This document shows, one piece after another, positions 45,092 through 63,500 of a DNA stretch of 64,000 bases. The notes below the pieces were generated by a model. It searched no databases. It was not told the DNA's origin and saw nothing but the letters and a program-made list of their open reading frames with translations. Source of the DNA: Emiliania huxleyi CCMP1516 (lineage: Eukaryota); contig NW_005202428.1 of assembly GCF_000372725.1 (NCBI RefSeq), positions 1,039,331-1,103,330 on the forward strand. Reading direction: 5' to 3'. The position numbers and the translations under genes were made by a program. The first letter of the stretch is position 1, and every line of letters starts with the position of its first letter.

Positions 45092-46384
45092 TTACTTCGC
45101 GGGCGACGCCTTTGGCGGCGACTTTGGCGGCGGCACTCCCGACTTCGCCGGCCATGCAGGCCACTCCTCCAGCGCCGGCGCAGTCCCGCCGTACTGCGCC
45201 GGCAGCTGCGCCGGGTCAATCAGGCTGTGCAGGTGCTCTCTCGCGCGCTTGGGCTCCCCCGCCGAGATGATTTGGACCTTCGCCTTGGTCTTCTCGTCCA
45301 GCCACGCGCTCACGATCTTCCACACAAACGCGAGCGATGCGGGCGCGTTGATGATGACAAACCCGCCGAGCCGCTCTGGGTAGTGGTCGGCGTCGATATT
45401 TGCCATGCTCTTGAGCACCTTGAGCGCCACCCGGTCCATCTGCGTGGGCGAGAAGCCCTTGGCATCGCAGATGATGAGCCACTGCTCTGCTCCAACCTCG
45501 TTCAGCCGGCGTGTGTACTGCTCGTTCACCCACCTACCAGGAGAGCACGAGGTGTGATAGGCGACTTCGCCGTGTGCACACTTGACCGGCAATATGCGCG
45601 TCTTTTCGAGCAGGCGTGTGGGGGCAGGTGGTAAGGTGGGGGGGGGGGGGGGGCACCAGTTGTAGTCGCAGAGCTGGTCGAGCGTGATGTTCGTCGAGTT
45701 GAGCAGCCGCGAGAAATAGACGTGGCCAAAGTGCTTGATGATGACCGGGCGGCCTCTGCGGTCGAGGCAGGGCGGGTTTTCGTGCGGTAGGAATGCCTTG
45801 AGCTTGGCCACCTCGCACCCGAGCACCGCATCCGCGTCCTCGCCGCTCCGCTCCTCAATTCGGTGCTTCCGGCGCCACGCCAAATCAGCCTGCAACCGGA
45901 GGCGGTGCCAGTGAGGAAGAAGAGTACGAAGTCGCCCAGGGGAACGGGGGGGGGGGGGGAGACGGCGTCACGCGAGGCGCGGGCGGGCAGGGGAGGGGCC
46001 CGCAGTCGATGCCTGCAGGAAGTCGGACGACTTGCCCACGTGGAGCTTGCGGGCTCGCAGCCAGCGGAGAAGGTCAGCGCGGCTGAGGTGGGCGATACAC
46101 TCGCCCCGCCGCTCCATCTCGGCACGCAGCCCTGCGAGCGCCCTCTCCTCCGGCGTATCGGGCACGGCAGGGCAAGGTCTTGCAGGCGGCGGCGGCGCGA
46201 CGCTGCCGGCATCCGAGGAAGAGGGTGCCGAGTCGGTCTCGTCCAATTCCGCGGCGACCACGTCCAGCTCGAGTGGCTTAGCAACGGCCACCGACGTCGC
46301 CCCCGCCCCGTTAACGCCCACACCCAGCGGCTGAGGCGTGCCATTCTCCTTGTGCGCCTCTGGAGATTCCGCAGATGGGGGCAT
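45092..46384 (-). CDS. CRAL-TRIO (SEC14-like) lipid-binding protein, 3 exons
   Basis: DLLRWLRARK...LAWRR, LDRRGRPVII, IICDAKG, HYPERLGGFVIINAP...VWKIVSAWLDEKTKAKV, QLPAQYGG. Confidence 0.92.
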
Positions 46385-46923
46385 CTAAAACAAGAAATTA
46401 TTTCTCACGCAGCCGGTTTATAAGTAAAACGGAGAGGCCAAGCGAGGTCCGAGGAGGAGGACAGGGTCCCCACCTGCACGAGCAGGATTTTGGAAGGACG
46501 ATCAGGGGGACAGGTGGGTGGGCTCTCCTGCTCCTGACAAGGGCCAGTGAAAGAAAGAAAGAAAGAAAACAGACAACGCAAGGGAGGGATGGGCAAGTAA
46601 AGAAAGAAAGAAAACAGACAAGCCAAGGGAGGGATGGGAGGACGGCACGCCGCCACCACACAGGGATTTTAAGGAGAGGGGTGTGGTGCGCTAGCCGTCG
46701 CCCACCCTTGGGCGTCCGCCTCTTCCTATCTCTCTTCGCAGTCTCTCGCCGATTCTCGCTGCAACCTTCATGCCACCTCGCGGTCGTCCCACTCTCGTCG
46801 TTCTTTCCCTTGTCGCCCTTGTCGCTTCTTCTTCTGTCGCGTCGCTCTCTTCTGCCTCGTCCTGCGACGCCGGGATGGGCAATAAATAAATAAATAGAGC
46901 AGTCATCTCCAGGGAGGGATCGG

Positions 46924-49339
46924 CTTGGAGCACTTGGAGCACTTGGAGTGCAGTCGGCAACCTCACATCCAGGGCCGGTGAGCTGAGAAGCGCATCCAGC
47001 GGGCCGGATGATCGGCATCGGGCTACGGGCTAGAGAGCCCTGACCCCTAGCTAGGGGGGGGCGCGCATTCGCAGGGCAAGGGCCTTAAAGTAAACACGGG
47101 TCTCCGAGGGTTAGTTCTGCGCTTTGGGTGTCCCCTAGCGGCGGAACGCCCCCTCTACTCGGAGCTAGAGAATACTCTCCGAGGGTTAGCCCCGCGTACC
47201 AGGTTTCCCCTTAACTGCAAGGACGCCCCCTCTACTCGGAGCTAGTGATACGAGAATACGTACCGCCCCCACGCGCAGTACCTGTACTACTCGACGATAA
47301 CACAAGAATACGCAGCTTGCGAGACGCCTATAAAGAAACAGCGGGGTAGGGCTTGATCTCCACAGGCTGGTCGTATCCAAGCGCCGCTGAGCTGACTCTC
47401 TGCAGGTCCCGGCGCAGCTCCTCCTCATTGCCATGGTCTCTCGGCAGCGGGACTATCACGACACCGTCATGCTGAAGGTTGATGACCGCACGGCCCGTCG
47501 CGCACGCCCAGTTCCATTTGGCCGTCCTGGAGACCGCCTCCAGTTCCGAAACCACGTCCGATTTGAGCGTGCGCGCCGGGTCGGTCGCCCCCCCAGGCGG
47601 GTTCACGTTCGTCTCGTGCAGGTTCCAGTACCCCACAGTCTCGTGCAAGTCCGTCAACTGTTCGGCGAGCCATTGCGTACGGAGCGACTGTTGCCGGAAT
47701 AGTTCCCGGACGTGGAAGGTCTCGCCCCCCCCCAACGCGATCGGGCCCTCTCCCAGCGACCTATCCTCCGGGATGTCATTACGGGTGCGCCACGCGGAGT
47801 ACGTGCCATCCATCTCGGTGGCGCAGAACAGGCCTTTGACTGCCTTCCTAGACACGGTTGGCTCCGCTCCTGGGAGGAGGGCCGCTCCCACTGCCACAAG
47901 CACCTTCTCCCTGGTCTCCCCCCGGAGGAACTCCGCCGCTAGCTCTCTGTGGACTCCAATCACCGCGAGGGCCGCCCGCGCATGTGCGGCTCCGTCGTCA
48001 AAGTCGAGGCCAAAGCGCGCCAGCGCGGTGCTTCGGATGGGTCTCGGGAGCCGGAAGGGGTCCGCCGAAGGGGTTGTAGCGTACTCCCTCCCCCCGGAGA
48101 GCCAACCCGCCGCCACCATGGCGTCCGTGCGTCTCCCGTGTTCAAACTCGATGTCCACAAACCCCGTCCGCGGGTCCGGCCCCGGTCTCACCCTCTGGAG
48201 AAAAGCCCTCACCACGTCGTGGTGCGTTTGGTTCGCGAAGAAATGCCGGTCTCGCCGAATCACTCTGGCCCCTGCCGCCGACGCGGCGTACGCCTCGAGC
48301 GCCCCTATGTCGATAGGGCACCGAACCCTTCGGGTGACCGGCCTACCTTCTCGTCGGATCCTAGCATGTTCCTCCCCCCTGAACATGTCATTGAGCAGCT
48401 CGGCCCTTGCCTTCCGCAGCCTTTCCCTCGCCTCGGCCACCTGCTCGTTGGTACATGGCGGCCTCCCCGCCTGCTTCCGTTTTTGGTCCATGTGTCCCAG
48501 CCGGGTCACCGCCTGTTGGTACAGCCGCTCCACCCTCCCTCGGGATGGCGTCGCGTGGACCACTACATCCCCGAGGACGCCGAAGGCATGCCTCGCCCTC
48601 ATCACCCGCGTGACCTCGTCTAGGAAAACCACCGAATCATAGCCAGGCGTGCGGATCCGGGGAGGAGGCTCGTGGCGGATTTGGTTCGGTTCAGCCCTTC
48701 CTTCGACTCGTGCCGTCGGCTGTCCCTCCCCCGTCTCTGCTCCTCCCCCGTCTGAGGCTCGCGTGGCTTCCTCCCTCCGTGCTCCCGCCGGCGGCTGGTT
48801 CTGCCGTACAAGGCCCCGCAGTTCTTCCGCAACGATCTCTCGGTGTCCGAGCTGGTCACCTCCGTTGCCCTGCATGCCCTCGCGGTCGACGTGAGGTAGC
48901 ACCTCCTTGACCATCGCTTCCGCTAGGTCCGCGAGATCCCGCCTCCCCACAAATCGTAGCAGCTTCCTCCCCGACGGGTTCTTGATTCCGGCGAGCCTCT
49001 CCGGTCCGTCGAGGTCGTCGGCCTGTAGGCGGGGGGTCTACTCAAGTGCCTGCGTGAGTGAGTGTGGAGTGGTGGTGTGACGTGTGAGGCGTGCAGTGTG
49101 GTGTTCATTAGCTCCGAGTAGAGGGGGCGTCCTGCAGTTAAGGGGAAACCCGGTACGCGGGGCCAACCCTCGGAGACCCGTGTTTACTTTAAGGCCCTTG
49201 CCCTGCGAACGCGCACCCCCCCTAGGGGTCAGGGCTCTCTAGCCCGTAGCCCGATCCCGATCATCCGGCCCGCTGGGTGCGCTTCTGAGCTCCCCGGCCC
49301 TGGATGTGAGGCTGCCGACTGCACTCCAAGTGCTCCAAG
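46924..49339 (-). mobile_element. Putative mobile element: PolA/TV-Pol-like ORF between ~230-bp inverted repeats with (CTTGGAGCA)n termini
   Basis: 49109-49339 is the near-identical reverse complement of 46933-47244 (left arm has a ~70-bp internal duplication at ~47101-47175); third copy of the end at 55056-55457. Confidence 0.8.
47328..49023 (-). CDS. Family-A DNA polymerase-like protein (TV-Pol-like palm/fingers), N-terminus missing or spliced
   Basis: GREYA...FRLPRPIRSTAL (GR / LPRxIR), LDFDDGAAH (motif A), RKAVKGLF....DG (motif B RxxxK), TLKSDVVSELE, VINLQHDGVVI (motif C), VEIKP; frame stays open to a CTACAG acceptor-like site at ~49023, first ATG 48914. Confidence 0.7.
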
Positions 49340-50132
49340 GGTAAAGTTCGGCGGCTATGATAAACCGAAAGTTGTCGTAAAACGCGGGCGAAAGCAAAGC
49401 AGAGGGCGGGCGCTTTTTGCCGCAGCGATGCCCGCAGCCTGTCGAGCAGCTTCCGCGGCGCACATGCGCCGCGGGGTTGAACGACAGCCGCGCCTCTCGA
49501 GCCACCCGTGCCACGCGCGGCGACGCGCACCCTGCGCGCCAGTCGGCGCACTGGCAGTACTGCACCAGCCAGCACGGCGTGGAGCAATGCATCCAGGGCA
49601 TTGTGTTGGGCGCCAGCCAGCATGCCTCAGCACAGAGCAAGAGCGCATGCTGCGCACCCTGGCGCAGCACCAGCTCGCCTCCAATCAGGCACTCTCACCA
49701 CTGCACAGCCGCCCACGAGCGCCCGCAGCTGCACTGCTCAACGCTCAAGCTCAGGAGCCTCCCCTTGTTGTCGCAGCTTTGTGCAGTGCAGCGTGCGAGC
49801 AGCGCAGCGCCAGGCAGACCCGTGGCACGCCCGGGCGGCTGTGGGACGGAGGCCCGCCGAGCGAGTGCGAGCCGCATCGGCGGCCATGTCTCCCGCAGCC
49901 GCGAGCGAGCGGTGCAAAGAGGCAGCGTCGCGCATGCTTTCCGTAACGGTTCTATCGCTTTGCAAAAATTCTTTTCGTGATCATTCTGTTCGCGCGGAGG
50001 AGGAAGGCAGTTGGCAACCTCCTCCAGCGTCTTGACGGAGTGCCCCCAGCCCGGCGGGAGGTAGAGCAGAGACCCCCGACAGCTGCAGCGAGCGTCCGGC
50101 TCGGAGACCACAAGCGGACTGAAGAAACCAAA

Positions 50133-53100
50133 ATGCCCGACCCCACCGCTGTCACTGCTCTCGTGCGTGCCCTGATCGAGGCCGAGGTGCCTGAGCTCCC
50201 GCCCGGAGACGAGCGCGCCTTGCGTCTGCTGCGGTACGCCTTGCGCATCCTCGGTTCCTCGATGCCGAGCGCGCTGCCATCGGCATCGCAGAGTGCAGAG
50301 CTTGCGCGGCGGCGGCTGGTGCACGCGGGTCGCACCGAGGACGCGCTGGCGCTGTCGCGGCGGCTGCGGGCGCTCGAGGCTTGCCCGGGCGCGCGGAACC
50401 TCCCATGTGTGCTCCACCTCCTCACCTGCCTGATGCAATCGCCGCCGCCGGGCTCGCTCGCGGCGTTCGCCCGCGGCTCGCTCCTCGAACGCACTGGCGG
50501 ACGCGCCATCGAGAGCGGCGGAGCTTCGCGCCCCTCACGCGCCGCCGTGCCGCTGCCATCCCGTCGCGCGCCCTCTTGCAGCGACGGAATCGGTCGCGCG
50601 GACGCGTCTGCTTTGCAGCACGCTGCTGCCGCCGCCGCTGCTTCCGGCGGCGCTGCTGCTACTTCCGCCTCCGCCGCGCCCGCGAGGACGGGCTGGCGCG
50701 CGGGCGCAGGCAGCGGCGGCGTCGTCGGCGAGGAGGCTTCCGAGACACTCCCGAGACGCTTCCGAGGCACTTCCCCACCAAGACCTCCCCAGACGCCTCC
50801 CGTCCAGGCGCTCGTCCGCGACCTGCTCTACGTGATGCAAAACATCGAGGGCAGGCACCTCAAGTGGGACGACAAGGCCGACTCCTTCCTCTTTCAGCCC
50901 GCCGAGCGACCACGAGGCGGCCCCCCCTTGCCGCAGCTGACGCCCGCCGCCGCCGCCGCCGCCGCTTCGCTGGCCCCGGGAGTCGTGCAGGCGGTGGCGA
51001 GGTTGTGTGAGATCGGGTGGATGTACCGCGCCGTCTCCGCCTTTGTCGCCGAAGCGCACACGCCGCACACCTCGGGGGGCGGCGCAGGGCTCGTCGCGCG
51101 TGCGCTCGCCGCGTCGATGCAGGCGGAGCTGATCACATCTAGTGGCGTACAGAGTCTAAGTATGTAACATCTCGCGCGTCGTTGCAGGCGGAGCTGAGCG
51201 AGTGGCTGCGGCTGCTCGCCGTGCTCGAGTCGCAGCGGCTGCAAGGCCTCTCCCTCCAGCTGCCCGCGTGTGGCGAGATGTTCGAGTCGATTCTATGATA
51301 CAGTGCATCATGAGATTAGGCCTCTCCCTCCTCCAGCTGCTCGTCTGGGGCGAGCCTCCCCTCCAGGTCACTCTCGGGAGAAGCCGCGCCGTCCCACGCC
51401 CGCTTGCCTGATGGCGGCCAGAGTCGTGCTAGCCACCTCCGAGCCACTCCCTTGCGACCTCTGCCTCCGCCGACGCCCTCACCAGCTGCCTCTCCGTGAC
51501 CCCCACCTCACGCCCGCCTGGCCCGTCCCACGCGCGCAGCGCTTCGTCACCCTCGTCGCGGTCGTGCGAGGGTGCAGCCACCTTCGCGGCGGCGCGATGA
51601 CAGTCGGTGTCGAGCGGCTCGGCCAGCACGGCGACCCGGCGGTGGAGGCGTACGTGCAGCGGCTGCTGCGCGGCGCGTGCGCGCCGCTGCTCGAGAGCTT
51701 GCGTCGCTGGCTCACGGACGGAGAGCTGGACGACCCTTGCGGCGAGATGTAGCCGAGATCTCGCCGAGAGGTCGCCGAGAGGTCGCCGAGGTGCACGATC
51801 CTGCCCCCCCCCCCCCCTCCTCTCAAACCCGCGGCAACCCCCCCCTTTCATGGGGTTCGATCGTTGATGACTCAGGCGAGTTCTTCATCGAGGCCCGCCC
51901 CGCGCCGCTCGCCGAGCTGTGGGAGAAGCGGTACGCCCTTCGGCCGCACATGCTGCCCTGCTTCCTCTCGCCCAAGGCCGCCTCGCGCGCCCTGCTGGGC
52001 GGCAAAGCGATCAACTTCATCCGCCTCGCCTGCGGGGAGGGGCAGTGGACCTTCGACGCGGCCGCCGCCGCCGCGAGGGGGGGCGCCGCCGCCGCCGCGG
52101 CCGGGCGGCACTTCGGCGCCGCGTTCGAGCCTCGGACAGTCAACTTGGCGGAGCGGGCCGCCGGCGAGGCGACGCTCTCTGCGGCGATCGAGTGCGCGTG
52201 CTCGCGCGCCAACGAGAAGCTGGTCGAGCTGCTGCTCGGCCGGCACCGGCTGCAGGAGCAGCTTCCCCACGGAGCACTCCCGAGATCACACCCGAGATTG
52301 CCCGAGGCTGTCTGGAGCTCACCCGAGCTCACCGACCTGCAGGAGCACCTCACCCACCTGAAAGAGTATCTCCTGCTCGGCAAGGGCGACTTTGTGCAGG
52401 CGCCGCCTCATCTCGGGCGAGTCTCGGCTAAGACTGGGGGGTATTGGCTGATCTCGGGTGATCTCGCGTCATATCGCGTCATATCGCGTATTCTCGCGTG
52501 ATCTCGGGTGATCTCGCGTGATCTCGGGTGATCTCGCGTGATCCCGCGTGATCTCGCGTGATCTCGCGTGATCTCGTGCAGGCGCTGATGGAGCCGCTCT
52601 TGCCGCAGCTCTCGCGCCCCGCCTCGCAGCTGCACCGCCACCACCTGCTTGGGCTCGTCGAGTCCGCGGTGAGATGAGCCGAGATGAGCCGAGATGAGCC
52701 GAGATTGCGCCGAGATGAGCCACTTGCCCGGGCTCGTCGAGTCCGCGGTCCGCGGACTGCACGCCCCCGCTCGGCGCTGGCCGTGGAGCTTTGCGTGAGC
52801 CTTCTCGGAGCCACCCGCAGGTGCGCTCCTGCACCTCGCCCGGTGTCGCGGCAGGGAGCGGGAACGTCGGCTCGAGCGGCGGCGGATCGGGTTGGGCCCG
52901 CGGCGGCAGCGACTCGGAGCAGCTGCTGCTGCTCGCCCACCTCGGCGTCCTGCTGAGCAGCTCGCCGGGCGAGATGCCGCCGAGATGCCGCCGAGATGTG
53001 GAGACCACACAAGACACAGTCCCGCTGAGCAGCTCGCCACCGGCTCTCGGCTGGCCGCCCCAGTGGGCCAACCTCGCATGCGCCGAGGAACGAGCCGACT

Positions 53101-53887
53101 AGGCGCCACCGGCTGGGAGGCTTTCTCGCTCGACTACCGCGCCGACCCGCCCGTGAGCGCAGTGCTGAGCGCGGCCGCCGTCGGCGAGTACCGGCGTGTC
53201 TTCACGCTGCTGTGGCGTCTCAAGCGCGTGGAGCTGTCGCTGTCCGCCGTCTGGCGCAGGCACACCACGGCGGCGCGGCTGGTGCGCGCGCTCTCGTCCG
53301 ACGCGCTGCTGCACCGCTGCCACCTGCTCCGGCACGAGATGGTGCACTTCGTCTTCAACCTGCAGTACTACCTGATGTTCGAGGTGATCCAGTGCTCGTG
53401 GGAGGAGCTCGTCGCCGCACTCGCCGCCGCCTCCGACTTGGACGGCCTCATCGGCGCGCACTCGGCCTTCCTCTCCGCCGTCGTCCAGAAGGCCATGCTC
53501 GGGCCGGAGAATGCGCCGCTGCTCGAGGCGCTGGACGCGCTCTTCGAGACGATCCTCCGGTTCGCAAAGTCGCAAGAGCTGCTCTACATCCACCTGCTCG
53601 AGCAGCGAGCCGCCGCCAAGCAGATGGCGGCAGCCGCCGCCGCAAACACCGCCGCCGGCGGGTGGGGCGCGGCGGGCGCGGCAGAGGCGGAGGCGCTGCT
53701 CGCCGAGGGGGACGCGCCGCCGCTTCAGCCGCACTTTTACGAACAGCTGCGCGTGCACGCCGCGCAGTACCGGCAGCAGTTCGCCGCCTTCTTCGCGCAG
53801 GTGACGCGCCACGCCTCGCTCGACCTCACGTTCCTCTCCTTCCGGCTCGACTTCAACGCGTACTACGAGTCGCTGGGCGGCGCGTAG
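50133..53887 (+). CDS. TUBGCP3: Gamma-tubulin complex component 3, many exons
   Basis: LVRDLLYVMQNIEG, LCEIGWMY, HGDP, WLTDGELDDPCGEFF, GKAINFIR, YLLLGKGDFV, GWEAFSLDY, EMVHFVFNLQYYLMFEVIQCSW, FLSFRLDFNAYY. Confidence 0.93.
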
Positions 53888-55055: not shown

Positions 55056-55457
55056 GGAGCACTTGGAGCACTTGGAGTGCAGTCATTAACCTCACATCCA
55101 GGGCCGGGGAGCTAAGGAGCGCACCCAGCGGGCCGGATGATCGGTATCGGGTTACGGGCTAGAGAGCCCTAGCCCCGGGGGTGCGCGTTCGCAGGGAAAG
55201 GGCCGTAAAGTAAAAACACGGGTCTCCGAGGGTTAGTTCCGTGTACCGGGTTTCCCCTTAACTGCAGAACGCCCCCTCTACTCGGAGCTAACGGACGACT
55301 AACATGTTTTCTTTCTTTTTCTACTCGGAGCCAGTGATACGAGAATACGCACATGTTACGAGAATACACACTGCCCCCACGGAGTACCTGTACTACTCGA
55401 CGATAATACAAGAATACGCAGCTTGGAAGTTGCAGACGCCTATAAAGGAAAAACAGC
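55056..55457 (-). mobile_element. Truncated copy of the Pol element: 3' end only
   Basis: Homologous to 46927-47342, from the GGAGCACTTGGAGCACTTGGAGTGCAG terminus through the region of the ORF stop codon. Confidence 0.85.
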
Positions 55458-55966
55458 AAGCTAAAGCTTTCGGCGGCTAAAAAGCAAAGGACGGGCGCTT
55501 TTGATCGGCAAAGCAAAGTTGGAGTAACGGCGACCGCGTCGTCACAATGCCAGTCGCCTGTCGAGCAGCCTTGGCGGCGCGCATGCGCCGCAGGGTTGAC
55601 CGACAGCCGCGCGCCTCGAGCATCTCGCTCCACTCACTCGCGGCACGACGCACCCCCCGCGCGCCGGTCAGCGCAACAGGAGTATTGCGACATGCTGCAC
55701 AACGCGCAAAGGACAGCACTGAGAGGTTGGCGCCAGTCGCCCACCAGCATGTCTCAGCACCGCGTGTGAGGGAGCATGCTGCGCACGCTGATGCAGGAGT
55801 CCTGCCAGAATTCATTCGCTCGACACCTATCTAGATATTGCTCACGCCGTCGAGCACGGCGTTCAAAGCGACGCGCTCACTAGAGTGTAGTGTTGGGCAC
55901 TGTCAGAGCGGTGTTACGACACCGATATCGTCTTAACGACGCCAACGTGCACGCTGGCAGTCTCCA

Positions 55967-57494
55967 ATGTCAGAGCAGAGTGTCAAGCCGGTCGTCGTGA
56001 TCGCAGTCGGCGTCATCGCAAGCATGTCTTTCAATACCGGCTACGACATCGGTATAATGTCGTCCGCGAAGAGGCTCATGGCGCTCGACCTCGACCTGAG
56101 CCCATGGCAGGTTTCCGTGTTGGTCGGCAGCCTCAACATTGTCACCGGCCTCGCCAGCCTGCTTAGCGGCGTGGCGGCGGACACCCTCGGAAGGAAGAGG
56201 CTCATCCTTCTCTCAAGCTTCATCTGCACAGTCGCTGTGCTGCTTATGGGAGCCGCCAGCGGACCGAACGCCTTTGCGATGGTGATGCTTGGGCGCACCT
56301 TCAACGGCATTGGCACCGGGCTGGCTCTGCAGGTGTCCCAATGCTTCGTCGCAGAGATTGCGCCGAAGCATATCCGCGGCTTGCTCGGCGCGTCGTTCGA
56401 GCTGTTCATCAACATCGGCGACTCTCGCCGTGTCTATCCTGCCATCCGTCTCCGAAGCTCGCCTGACCATGCACGGTTCGCTGGGTTTAGGCATCCTGAT
56501 GGGCTACATCGGCGGCTGGGCGCTCTCCGGTCTGCCCGTTGGCACCGCCTGGCGGCTGATGATTGGGCTGGGCGCTGTGCCGCCCGCGGTCGTCCTGCTC
56601 GTGATGCCGTGCATGCCCGAGTCGCCGCGCTTCCTCCTCGGAGCTGGCCGCGCGGACGAGGCGGAGCGAGTCTTGTACCGGATCTACGCGCCTGCCGAGG
56701 CGGCAGCCGCCCTGCAGGAGATGCAAGAGGAGGCGGCCAAGCACGCCGGAGCTGGTTCGGGCGCCGGGCTGCTCACGACGGCACGGCTGGTCCTCTGTGC
56801 GCCCGCGCCACGCACGCGCCAGCTCGCGCATGCCGCGCTCATGACCGCCTTCCTCCAGCAAGCCTCCGGCGTCGAGGCGGCGACCTACTACACTCCCGAG
56901 GTCATGGAGGCTGCCGGGGTCGAGGACGAGGCGTCGCTGCAGCTGGCCACGATCGCCATGGGCGCCGTCAAGGTGAGTGTGATCGGTGTCGCCGCGGCGG
57001 TCGTGGACCGGTGCGGACGCAAGCCGCTCCTCGTCGCCTCAAACGCGGGGATTGCCGCCGCGCAGCTCCTCCTGTCTGCCAGCTTTGCGTCCGGCGGCAT
57101 GCTGTGGGCCGCCCTGGCAGGCCAGTGCATCTTCATGGCAACCTTCTCCGCCGGGGTTGGCCCTTGCACGTGGCTGCTCATCCCCGAGTCCTTCCCGCTA
57201 GCCGCGAGGGGCGTCGGCGTCGGCATCGCCACCTTCATCAACCGCATGGCCGCCGGGGGGATCGCGCTCGTCTTCTCCTCCCTGATCCGCACCCTCACCC
57301 CCGCCGGCACCTTCCTCTTCTTCGCGATGTGCGCGGCCGGGGCCGCGGCATACACCTCGGCGTGCGTGGTCGAGACGAAGGGCCTCTCGCTCGAGGAGAT
57401 CCACTCGGAGCAGCCGCGTTCGAACGGTGCCGCGGCTCGTGCTCCTGCTGCCGCGGCGGACCCTGCCAGGACTGTCCTAGTCAGGTCCGAATGA
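55967..57494 (+). CDS. MFS sugar porter (polyol/monosaccharide transporter), 2 exons
   Basis: GYDIGIMS, ADTLGRK, AEIAPKHIRG, PESPRFL, QQASG...YY, VDRCGRKPL, PESFP..ARG, VETKGLSLEEI; GC-AG intron ~56420-56490. Confidence 0.93.
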
Positions 57495-63412: not shown

Positions 63413-63500
63413 GCACCTCACCCCTCTCCTTAAAATCCCTGTGTGGTGGCGGCGTGCCGTCCTCCCATCCCTCCCTTGGGTGTCCGTGTTCTTTCTTTCT
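63413..63500 (-). repeat. Inverted copy of repeat family A
   Basis: CTCTCCTTAAAATCCCTGTGTGGTGGCGGCGTGCCGTCCTCCCATCCCTCCCTTGG followed by (TTTC)n. Confidence 0.9.

What the first reader, a model, noticed from the sequence alone, without database searches (positions are those of the whole stretch)
46924..49339. Candidate undescribed mobile element encoding only a family-A (TV-Pol-like) DNA polymerase, with long inverted repeats and tandem-repeat termini
Seen: one long minus-strand frame (47328-~49023) lies between ~230-bp near-identical inverted arms, each ending in CTTGGAGCA units of variable number. The protein carries GREYA..LPRPIR, DFD...H, RxxxK.LF and LQHDG in the order of PolA motifs A/B/C. 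Established: TV-Pols are divergent PolA-family enzymes of phages, virophages and transposon-like elements, usually linked to a helicase; the common eukaryotic TE classes rely on RT, DDE, YR, HUH or protein-primed PolB enzymes. Inference: no such enzyme and no TSD is visible here. The ORF looks cut at its 5' end by an inverted copy of its own 3' end, an architecture that recalls Penelope-like elements or fold-back self-priming replication. This may be a PolA-driven copy-out element. I do not know a named TE class that fits.
Basis: partly seen in the sequence, partly recalled or inferred. Interest (0 to 1): 0.9.

Follow-up and report, generated by a model that had tools for sequence, protein, structure and literature searches.

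The report
Retrotransposons carrying a second DNA polymerase
This is a broken, nested copy of a giant algal copy-and-paste retrotransposon whose protein carries, besides its reverse transcriptase, a domain predicted to be a second, virus-like DNA polymerase, which likely writes the second DNA strand that other such elements leave to the host.

Summary
The ORF, arms and PolA motifs are real, but this is not a PolA-only element. The 569-aa frame is a chimera: 52 aa of one protein joined to 507 aa cut from a roughly 4,800-aa LINE polyprotein (APE endonuclease, RT, then this domain), likely in Emiliania huxleyi. The 'inverted repeats' come from nesting: 47349-49339 sits, reversed, inside another copy of the same end family, between 4-bp GGTA duplications.

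The better finding is the domain. It is predicted to fold as a family-A polymerase (Z 13.5), closest to virophage TV-Pol-helicases (E 4e-9), with both catalytic aspartates in 50 of 50 near-complete relatives. It has 575 clusters and sits inside at least three kinds of RT protein: this LINE, L1-type LINEs (often right after RNase H) and Penelope-like elements. Its tree rejects one origin in the Penelope-like group (p=5e-5). Ten literature searches found no description. Likely role: element-encoded second-strand synthesis after target-primed reverse transcription; untested.

The parts
46924..46948 (-). 3' tail of the host copy: 2.8 units of a 9-bp repeat
   Evidence: highest summed contig depth of the arm lies here
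46924..47348 (-).
   Evidence: second copy at 55056
47345..47348 (+). Left copy of 4-bp target-site duplication (GGTA)
   Evidence: contigs that pass 47348 continue into 49344+ in 4 of 4 runs
47328..49037 (-). Chimeric 569-aa open frame (first ATG at 48911; stop supplied by the host copy)
47349..48870 (-). Piece of the LINE pol polyprotein (about aa 2480-2990 of P0102; downstream of APE and RT)
47349..48635 (-). Complete PolA/TV-Pol-like domain (frame aa 135-563): R317 at 48089, D347-D348 at 47999-47994, K401 at 47837, D524 at 47468
48869..49026 (-). Piece of a second, ~1,450-aa protein (P0046/P0050), inferred ORF1 of the family; joined to the pol piece by a 2-nt overlap
49027..49339 (+).
   Evidence: three other records run from ORF1 sense into this end (P0047, P0052, P0054)
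49340..49343 (+). Right copy of the 4-bp target-site duplication
49344..49940 (-). Continuation of the host copy (right end approximate)
   Evidence: joint 47344->49340 in 3 of 4 runs; aligns to 55460-55800, score 273 vs shuffled maximum 88
55056..55800 (-). Second, diverged copy of the host-type element without the insertion (right end approximate)

Best explanation
The window holds a rearranged, nested copy of a giant non-LTR (LINE) retrotransposon whose single pol protein carries, after its endonuclease and reverse transcriptase, a domain predicted to be a family-A (TV-Pol-like) DNA polymerase that likely makes the second DNA strand of new insertions. Steps: (1) shown: APE, RT and the PolA-like domain lie in one ORF; (2) established for LINEs: APE nicks, RT copies the RNA from its 3' tail (TPRT); (3) inferred: after the RNA is removed (by the adjacent RNase H in many relatives, by the host here) the tethered PolA domain extends the upstream nick over the cDNA and fills the 5' junction; (4) shown: this copy lost most of the element, keeps its ORF pieces inverted relative to its tail, and sits in another copy between 4-bp duplications; inferred cause: a 5'-inversion (twin-priming-like) event with template jumps. 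Odds: LINE-derived and PolA fold ~0.93; catalytically active polymerase ~0.8; second-strand/junction synthesis as its job ~0.55.
For: RT (Pfam RVT_1 E 2e-11 to 3e-10) and APE (E 2.9e-6, above cut-off) in the same ORF as the domain: P0010, P0102; DNA check L001, one 1,962-aa frame. Fold: AF2 model pLDDT 67.7; all 48 listed Foldseek PDB rows are family-A DNA polymerases (best E 3.2e-4); VIA Z 13.5, rmsd 4.0, 268 aligned with Pol theta, 12.9 with T7; best viral match Zamilon virophage replication protein E 4e-9 versus DNA Pol I rows at E >= 5e-3. D347, D348, K401, E500, K507, D524 in 50 of 50 and R317 in 46 of 46 near-complete domains of median 32% pairwise identity. 575 clusters at 50% identity. 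Same domain C-terminal in L1-type LINEs with Pfam RT (P0096, P0099, P0277/P0278); RNase H upstream in 10 of 40 carriers scanned; inside Penelope-like proteins at two different positions. RTs of P0102 and P0096 share 25% over 174 aa, their PolA domains 43.5% over 441 aa; AU test rejects one clade for the 6 Penelope-borne domains, p=5e-5: the module was moved and kept. PMC13486585 (passages) states that how the first strand gains a second is not understood and relies on repair machinery.
Against: No activity was measured. The model is of middling confidence (TM 0.38-0.42 to Pol I). The 50 domains were selected by a profile that holds these motifs, so some conservation is built in. dN/dS versus L001 is 0.25 for the domain but also 0.26 for the linker: selection acts on the whole ORF, not shown to be specific. 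LINE RTs can copy DNA themselves (established), so a second polymerase is not required. 118 of 150 listed relatives are under 400 aa, so most contexts are unknown; 12 of 146 had long flanks with no recognised retroelement domain (one later showed RNase H). No RNase H was detected in the E. huxleyi-type protein. The internal priming site shows no complementarity to the target end, which a textbook twin-priming event often has. The pol piece is tied to the tail family only by this window.
Confidence: 0.58

Rival explanations
1. The domain is a primase-polymerase: it primes the second strand de novo on the cDNA (or amplifies free cDNA), so no second nick is needed.
For: TV-Pols were predicted to be primase-polymerases (PMC2579912, parts 1-2 of 3 read); virophage TV-Pol-helicases are the best structural matches.
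Against: That primase role is itself a prediction from helicase fusion, and no Walker A motif was found in 150 of 150 listed relatives. Position +5 of motif A is Y/F/H in 50 of 50, a bulky residue that would favour dNTPs (inference from recalled steric-gate rules). The 4-bp TSD implies two nicks.
Confidence: 0.15
2. The domain works like Pol theta: it joins the cDNA end to the upstream target by microhomology and patches, rather than copying the whole strand.
For: Pol theta ties for the top structural rows; this copy has three internal junctions, one with a 2-nt overlap, and ORF1-to-tail deletions recur.
Against: Rows within 1 Z are tied with T7 and Klenow, so the rank says nothing specific; RT template jumping alone explains such junctions (established).
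Confidence: 0.15
3. The domain is a passenger or non-catalytic nucleic-acid-binding module, one of a pool of accessory domains swapped among retroelements.
For: The polyprotein also carries unrelated extras (SANTA E 6.5e-12); accessory ORFs are known to be shared between LTR and Penelope-like elements (PMC5408684, passages); dN/dS is not lower than in the linker.
Against: All metal- and nucleotide-binding positions are invariant across 50 domains at 19-71% identity, unlikely without catalysis.
Confidence: 0.09
4. One reading: an autonomous PolA-only element with long TIRs that copies itself out by fold-back priming.
For: This copy does hold the whole domain in frame with an ATG, and the 3' break falls exactly at the domain's end.
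Against: No contig in the 5 runs laid is listed as bridging either ORF junction (contigs show presence, not absence); the arms belong to two different copies; TSD flanks only the inner part; all long relatives at >=90% identity are RT polyproteins.
Confidence: 0.03

Closest known systems
APE-type non-LTR retrotransposons (L1/Tx1 LINEs, reported in the haptophyte Tisochrysis lutea, PMC5963040 passages; long multi-domain LINEs such as Dualen/RandI, recalled)
   Same: APE + RT polyprotein, tandem-repeat 3' tail, short TSD, many short tail-side copies; L1-type carriers match human L1 ORF2p at E 6e-18.
   Different: A second, family-A polymerase domain in the pol protein; ~4,800 aa; the RT of this family is only 24-25% identical to the L1-type carriers, clade not assigned.
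TV-Pol family (Iyer, Abhiman, Aravind 2008, PMC2579912) of virophages, Polinton-like viruses and bacterial mobile elements
   Same: Minimal PolA core without proofreading exonuclease; invariant Arg, two Asp, RxxxK; best viral structure matches are virophage replication proteins.
   Different: Fused to RT/RNase H/GIY-YIG instead of a D5/SF3 helicase; carried by RNA-intermediate elements; 10-16% identity to the viral matches; 0 relatives in IMG/VR.
Naiad/Chlamys Penelope-like elements (Craig et al. 2021, PMC8557442)
   Same: Other carriers of the domain have an N-terminal GIY-YIG motif and a Penelope-type RT; Chlamys are known to take inserted accessory domains (PHD, SAP; section 9).
   Different: That paper's main text never uses the word 'polymerase'; the window's own element is an APE LINE, not a PLE.
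Accessory ORFs shared between retroelement classes (DEDDy exonuclease, GDSL esterase; PMC5408684)
   Same: One module exchanged between unrelated retroelement classes.
   Different: Here the module is a predicted DNA polymerase fused in frame within pol.

Membership tests
Non-LTR retrotransposon (APE-type LINE) | Non-LTR-type RT in the same ORF | tested here: met
   RVT_1 above cut-off in P0010, P0102, P0108; L001 single frame
Non-LTR retrotransposon (APE-type LINE) | APE endonuclease upstream of RT | tested here: met
   Exo_endo_phos 27.6 bits vs cut-off 24.5, aa 1036-1191 of P0102; weak match to L1 EN, E 0.007
Non-LTR retrotransposon (APE-type LINE) | Simple-repeat 3' tail and short TSD | tested here: met
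   9-bp units, 4-bp TSD; orientation from three ORF1-to-tail records
Non-LTR retrotransposon (APE-type LINE) | One contiguous full-length element linking ORF1, pol and this tail | not testable with these tools
   No whole genome held; no fetched locus spans pol and an arm
Named LINE clade (L1/Tx1, RandI/Dualen, other) | RT phylogeny against reference clades | not tested
   No reference RT set at hand; only pairwise identities and PDB sequence hits
Family-A DNA polymerase | Palm-fingers-thumb fold of Pol I type | tested here: met
   (Z 13.5, rmsd 4.0, 268 aligned), on a predicted model
Family-A DNA polymerase | Catalytic Asp of motifs A and C, motif B Lys | tested here: met
   50 of 50 for D347/D348, K401, D524; R397 in 35 of 50
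Family-A DNA polymerase | Template-dependent DNA synthesis | not testable with these tools
   needs biochemistry
TV-Pol | Minimal core: helical thumb, hairpin Arg, two Asp, RxxxK, no proofreading exonuclease | tested here: met
   features from PMC2579912; R317 46 of 46; N-terminal helices in the model; no exonuclease family in Pfam scans
TV-Pol | Linked to D5/SF3 helicase or to resolvase/integrase/transposase | tested here: not met
   no Walker A in 150 of 150 listed relatives (118 are short fragments); long carriers hold RT, RNase H or GIY-YIG instead
TV-Pol | Branches inside TV-Pol in a sequence tree | not tested
   only structural ranking and an atlas lead at 0.84 to DNA_pol_A, 44% of members
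Penelope-like element (window copy) | PLE-type RT with GIY-YIG | tested here: not met
   the parent ORF has APE and a non-LTR RT
Penelope-like element (other carriers P0121, P0124/P0263, P0127, P0128, P0114) | N-terminal GIY-YIG and telomerase-related RT | tested here: inconclusive
   motifs read by eye and self-built profiles; atlas 0.92-0.96 to HTH_animal/RVT_1 clusters; top six Foldseek rows are telomerase RTs but at E 0.02-0.35; no Pfam RT hit
Polinton-like virus / virophage | Capsid, packaging ATPase, viral context | tested here: not met
   no related locus in IMG/VR; neighbours are host genes
TIR DNA transposon / fold-back element | Both arms belong to one element, TSD outside the arms | tested here: not met
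   TSD lies inside the left arm's element

The most novel reading that the evidence does not exclude
A widespread, undescribed set of marine algal/protist retrotransposons, spanning two LINE lineages and Penelope-like elements, has repeatedly captured a virophage-type family-A DNA polymerase and uses it to complete integration itself: two-polymerase retrotransposons that do not rely on host repair for the second strand.
Probability: 0.45. Interest if true: 0.93.

Novelty: new variant of a known kind. Interest (0 to 1): 0.8.

Why it matters
How target-primed retrotransposons get their second DNA strand is an open question (PMC13486585, passages) and a limit on R2/LINE-based gene insertion. Elements that carry a separable DNA polymerase domain make the step directly testable with two point mutations, and could supply a natural RT-RNase H-DNA polymerase fusion for genome writing. 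It also links virophage/Polinton-like virus replication proteins to retrotransposons, and shows a ~430-aa polymerase module moving between LINEs and Penelope-like elements.

Tried and rejected
Whole-genome copy count: no genome held. Pfam, PHROGs and PDB sequence searches do not detect the domain. IMG/VR: nothing by protein, alignment or end motif. GTDB: one chance 20-mer. Rfam and tRNA scans of the arms: nothing above chance; the inserted 3' end folds no better than shuffles, z 0.53, so no ribozyme or hairpin primer was found. RNase H, a CCHC knuckle and a Dam-like methyltransferase downstream of the domain, a DnaJ-like reading of the N-terminal helices, and 2OG-oxygenase/LOTUS motifs in ORF1 were seen by eye only; Pfam and a self-built RNase H profile did not support them. 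Splicing as the cause of the ORF1-pol junction was rejected: the acceptor side lacks AG. No contig bridges the window's private junctions in the listed rows; this shows no absence. Contig depth falls from tail to ORF, as 5' truncation predicts, but summed contig depth is no copy number and was used only as a hint. An RNA-run contig of 6,738 nt covers the pol piece but does not show transcription. The wide structure search was not obtained; the 36-row careful tree did not finish, so a quick tree and an 18-row careful tree chosen from it (other rows left out for time) were used. Earlier scan notes: none. Literature: 10 searches found no retrotransposon-encoded PolA; Repbase, subscription journals and supplements were not seen and could hold one.

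Full report
Observation. The frame 47328-49037 (-) is open for 569 codons. The arms 46933-47248 and 49101-49339 are inverted (118 nt at 96%; 88% over 244 nt; the left has an extra ~75-nt duplication) and end in 9-bp units. The neighbours are ordinary eukaryotic genes, CRAL-TRIO and a gamma-tubulin complex component. Relatives named for Emiliania huxleyi at 81-99% identity make that alga the likely host (inference); no whole genome was held.

The ORF is a fragment. Residues 5-56 match a separate ~1,450-aa protein (P0046, P0050; 94-100%), residues 57-563 match a much longer ORF that continues on both sides. P0010 has a non-LTR RT upstream (RVT_1 E 2e-11); P0102 (3,766 aa) has SANTA, APE (aa 1036-1191), RT (1840-2034) and then this domain (about 2559-2987); locus L001 shows RT and the domain in one 1,962-codon frame of DNA. 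Overlaps of P0108, P0102, P0055 and P0106 put the whole protein near 4,800 aa (offsets).

The arms are a nesting effect. Contigs that pass 47348 continue with the sequence of 49344+ in 4 of 4 runs; the joint 47344->49340 is seen in 3 of 4 runs; a second copy at 55056-~55800 has the same order without an insert. GGTA stands on both sides of 47349-49339. These contigs are other members of a multi-copy family, not proven orthologous empty sites. Three stored proteins (P0047, P0052, P0054) run from ORF1 sense into this end family heading for the tail, so the repeat units are the 3' tail. The insert thus has its tail at 49339 on the + strand and its ORF pieces inverted: a 5'-inverted, internally deleted insertion (mechanism inferred; no complementarity at the internal priming point). 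The link between the pol gene and this tail rests on this window alone, and no listed contig bridges its private junctions.

The domain is predicted to be a family-A polymerase. Sequence libraries miss it. An AF2 model of aa 135-563 (pLDDT 67.7, pTM 0.60) returns only family-A DNA polymerases in the 48 listed PDB rows (best E 3.2e-4), Z 13.5/rmsd 4.0/268 aligned with Pol theta and 12.9 with T7 (tied). Among viral models the best is the Zamilon virophage replication protein (E 4e-9, TM 0.49), with a Qinghai Lake virophage helicase/primase/polymerase at rank 15 and named Pol I rows from rank 20. Of 152 sequences profiled, 50 cover the core; D347, D348, K401, E500, K507 and D524 are in 50 of 50, R317 in 46 of 46, R397 in 35 of 50, at median 32% pairwise identity. 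These are the features listed for TV-Pol in PMC2579912 (parts 1-2 of 3 read), but the helicase partner is missing (0 of 150 with Walker A). It works like a TV-Pol core; membership is not shown.

The domain is widespread and mobile among retroelements. A profile finds 575 clusters at 50% identity (327 at E <= 1e-10; 150 listed). Most listed are fragments (118 of 150 under 400 aa). Of 146 classified with self-built profiles, 13 had LINE-type and 9 Penelope-type neighbours, 12 had long unrecognised flanks, the rest were too short (seeds match by construction). Independent Pfam support: RNase H upstream in 10 of 40 carriers, and RT plus the domain in P0096, P0099, P0277, P0278, P0099 matching human L1 ORF2p at E 6e-18. 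P0121, P0263/P0124, P0127, P0128 and P0114 show an N-terminal GIY-YIG motif and a Penelope-type RT (by eye; atlas 0.92-0.96; telomerase RTs as top six weak rows; no Pfam RT hit), with the domain at two different positions. The window's domain groups (100/100) with P0096 (L1-type) and P0114 (Penelope-type); one clade for the 6 Penelope-borne domains is rejected, p-AU 5e-5 (18 of 36 rows). P0102 and P0096 share 43.5% over 441 aa in the domain but 25% over 174 aa in RT. Purifying selection is clear (dN/dS 0.25, p 2e-11) but equal in the linker (0.26).

Mechanism. TPRT by APE and RT is established for LINEs. The remaining step that needs a DNA-templated polymerase is the second strand, which PMC13486585 (passages) calls not understood and dependent on repair machinery. 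An intact PolA core tethered to RT, often directly behind RNase H, and kept through several moves between element classes, most likely does this (0.55-0.6). Rivals: de novo priming (0.15), Pol theta-like junction joining (0.15), non-catalytic passenger (0.09), PolA-only element (0.03). None was tested at the bench.

Novelty. Ten full-text searches (listings) found no retrotransposon-encoded PolA. PMC8557442 (term search and section 9) lists other Chlamys accessory domains and never says 'polymerase'; PMC12220804 (passages) treats TVpol as a virus gene and nested retrotransposons separately; PMC5408684 (passages) is the precedent for accessory ORFs shared between classes; PMC5963040 (passages) reports L1/Tx1 LINEs in a haptophyte without such a domain. 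Repbase, subscription journals and supplements were not seen. The names Dualen/RandI, twin priming and the steric-gate rule are recalled.

Noticed in passing
window 54266 and 63738 (+): A second end family with 8-bp units (CTTGAGCA)2 followed by a near-identical stretch at both places, parallel to the 9-bp tail; possibly the end of a related element.
   Followed up: no
window 46450-46923 and about 63420-63500: Extremely high-copy purine-rich repeat, often joined to short pieces of the tail family in run contigs.
   Followed up: no
window 49344-49940 and 55460-55800: The host element's inner part has a Cys/His-rich minus-strand frame (49239-49694) with no Pfam hit; the element may be a ~1-kb non-autonomous partner of the LINE.
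   Followed up: partly
window 47349: The 3' break falls exactly at the end of the PolA domain, and the fused frame has an ATG at 48911, so this copy could make a stand-alone 527-aa polymerase; P0065 also leaves the family sequence at this point. Chance or hot spot unknown.
   Followed up: partly
P0102 aa 2-88; P0046/P0050: The pol protein begins with a SANTA domain (E 6.5e-12; as in the centromere factor Mis18BP1); the ORF1-like protein has HxD..H oxygenase-like and LOTUS-like motifs by eye only.
   Followed up: no
P0096 about aa 1640-1760; P0127 aa 653-676: Other carriers hold further extras: a SET-like stretch by eye, and a Nup98 GLEBS motif (E 6e-8).
   Followed up: no
window 45092-45967 (-), 50134-53887 (+), about 55970-57490 (+): Host genes: CRAL-TRIO protein, gamma-tubulin complex component, and a sugar-transporter-like frame (by eye).
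   Followed up: partly
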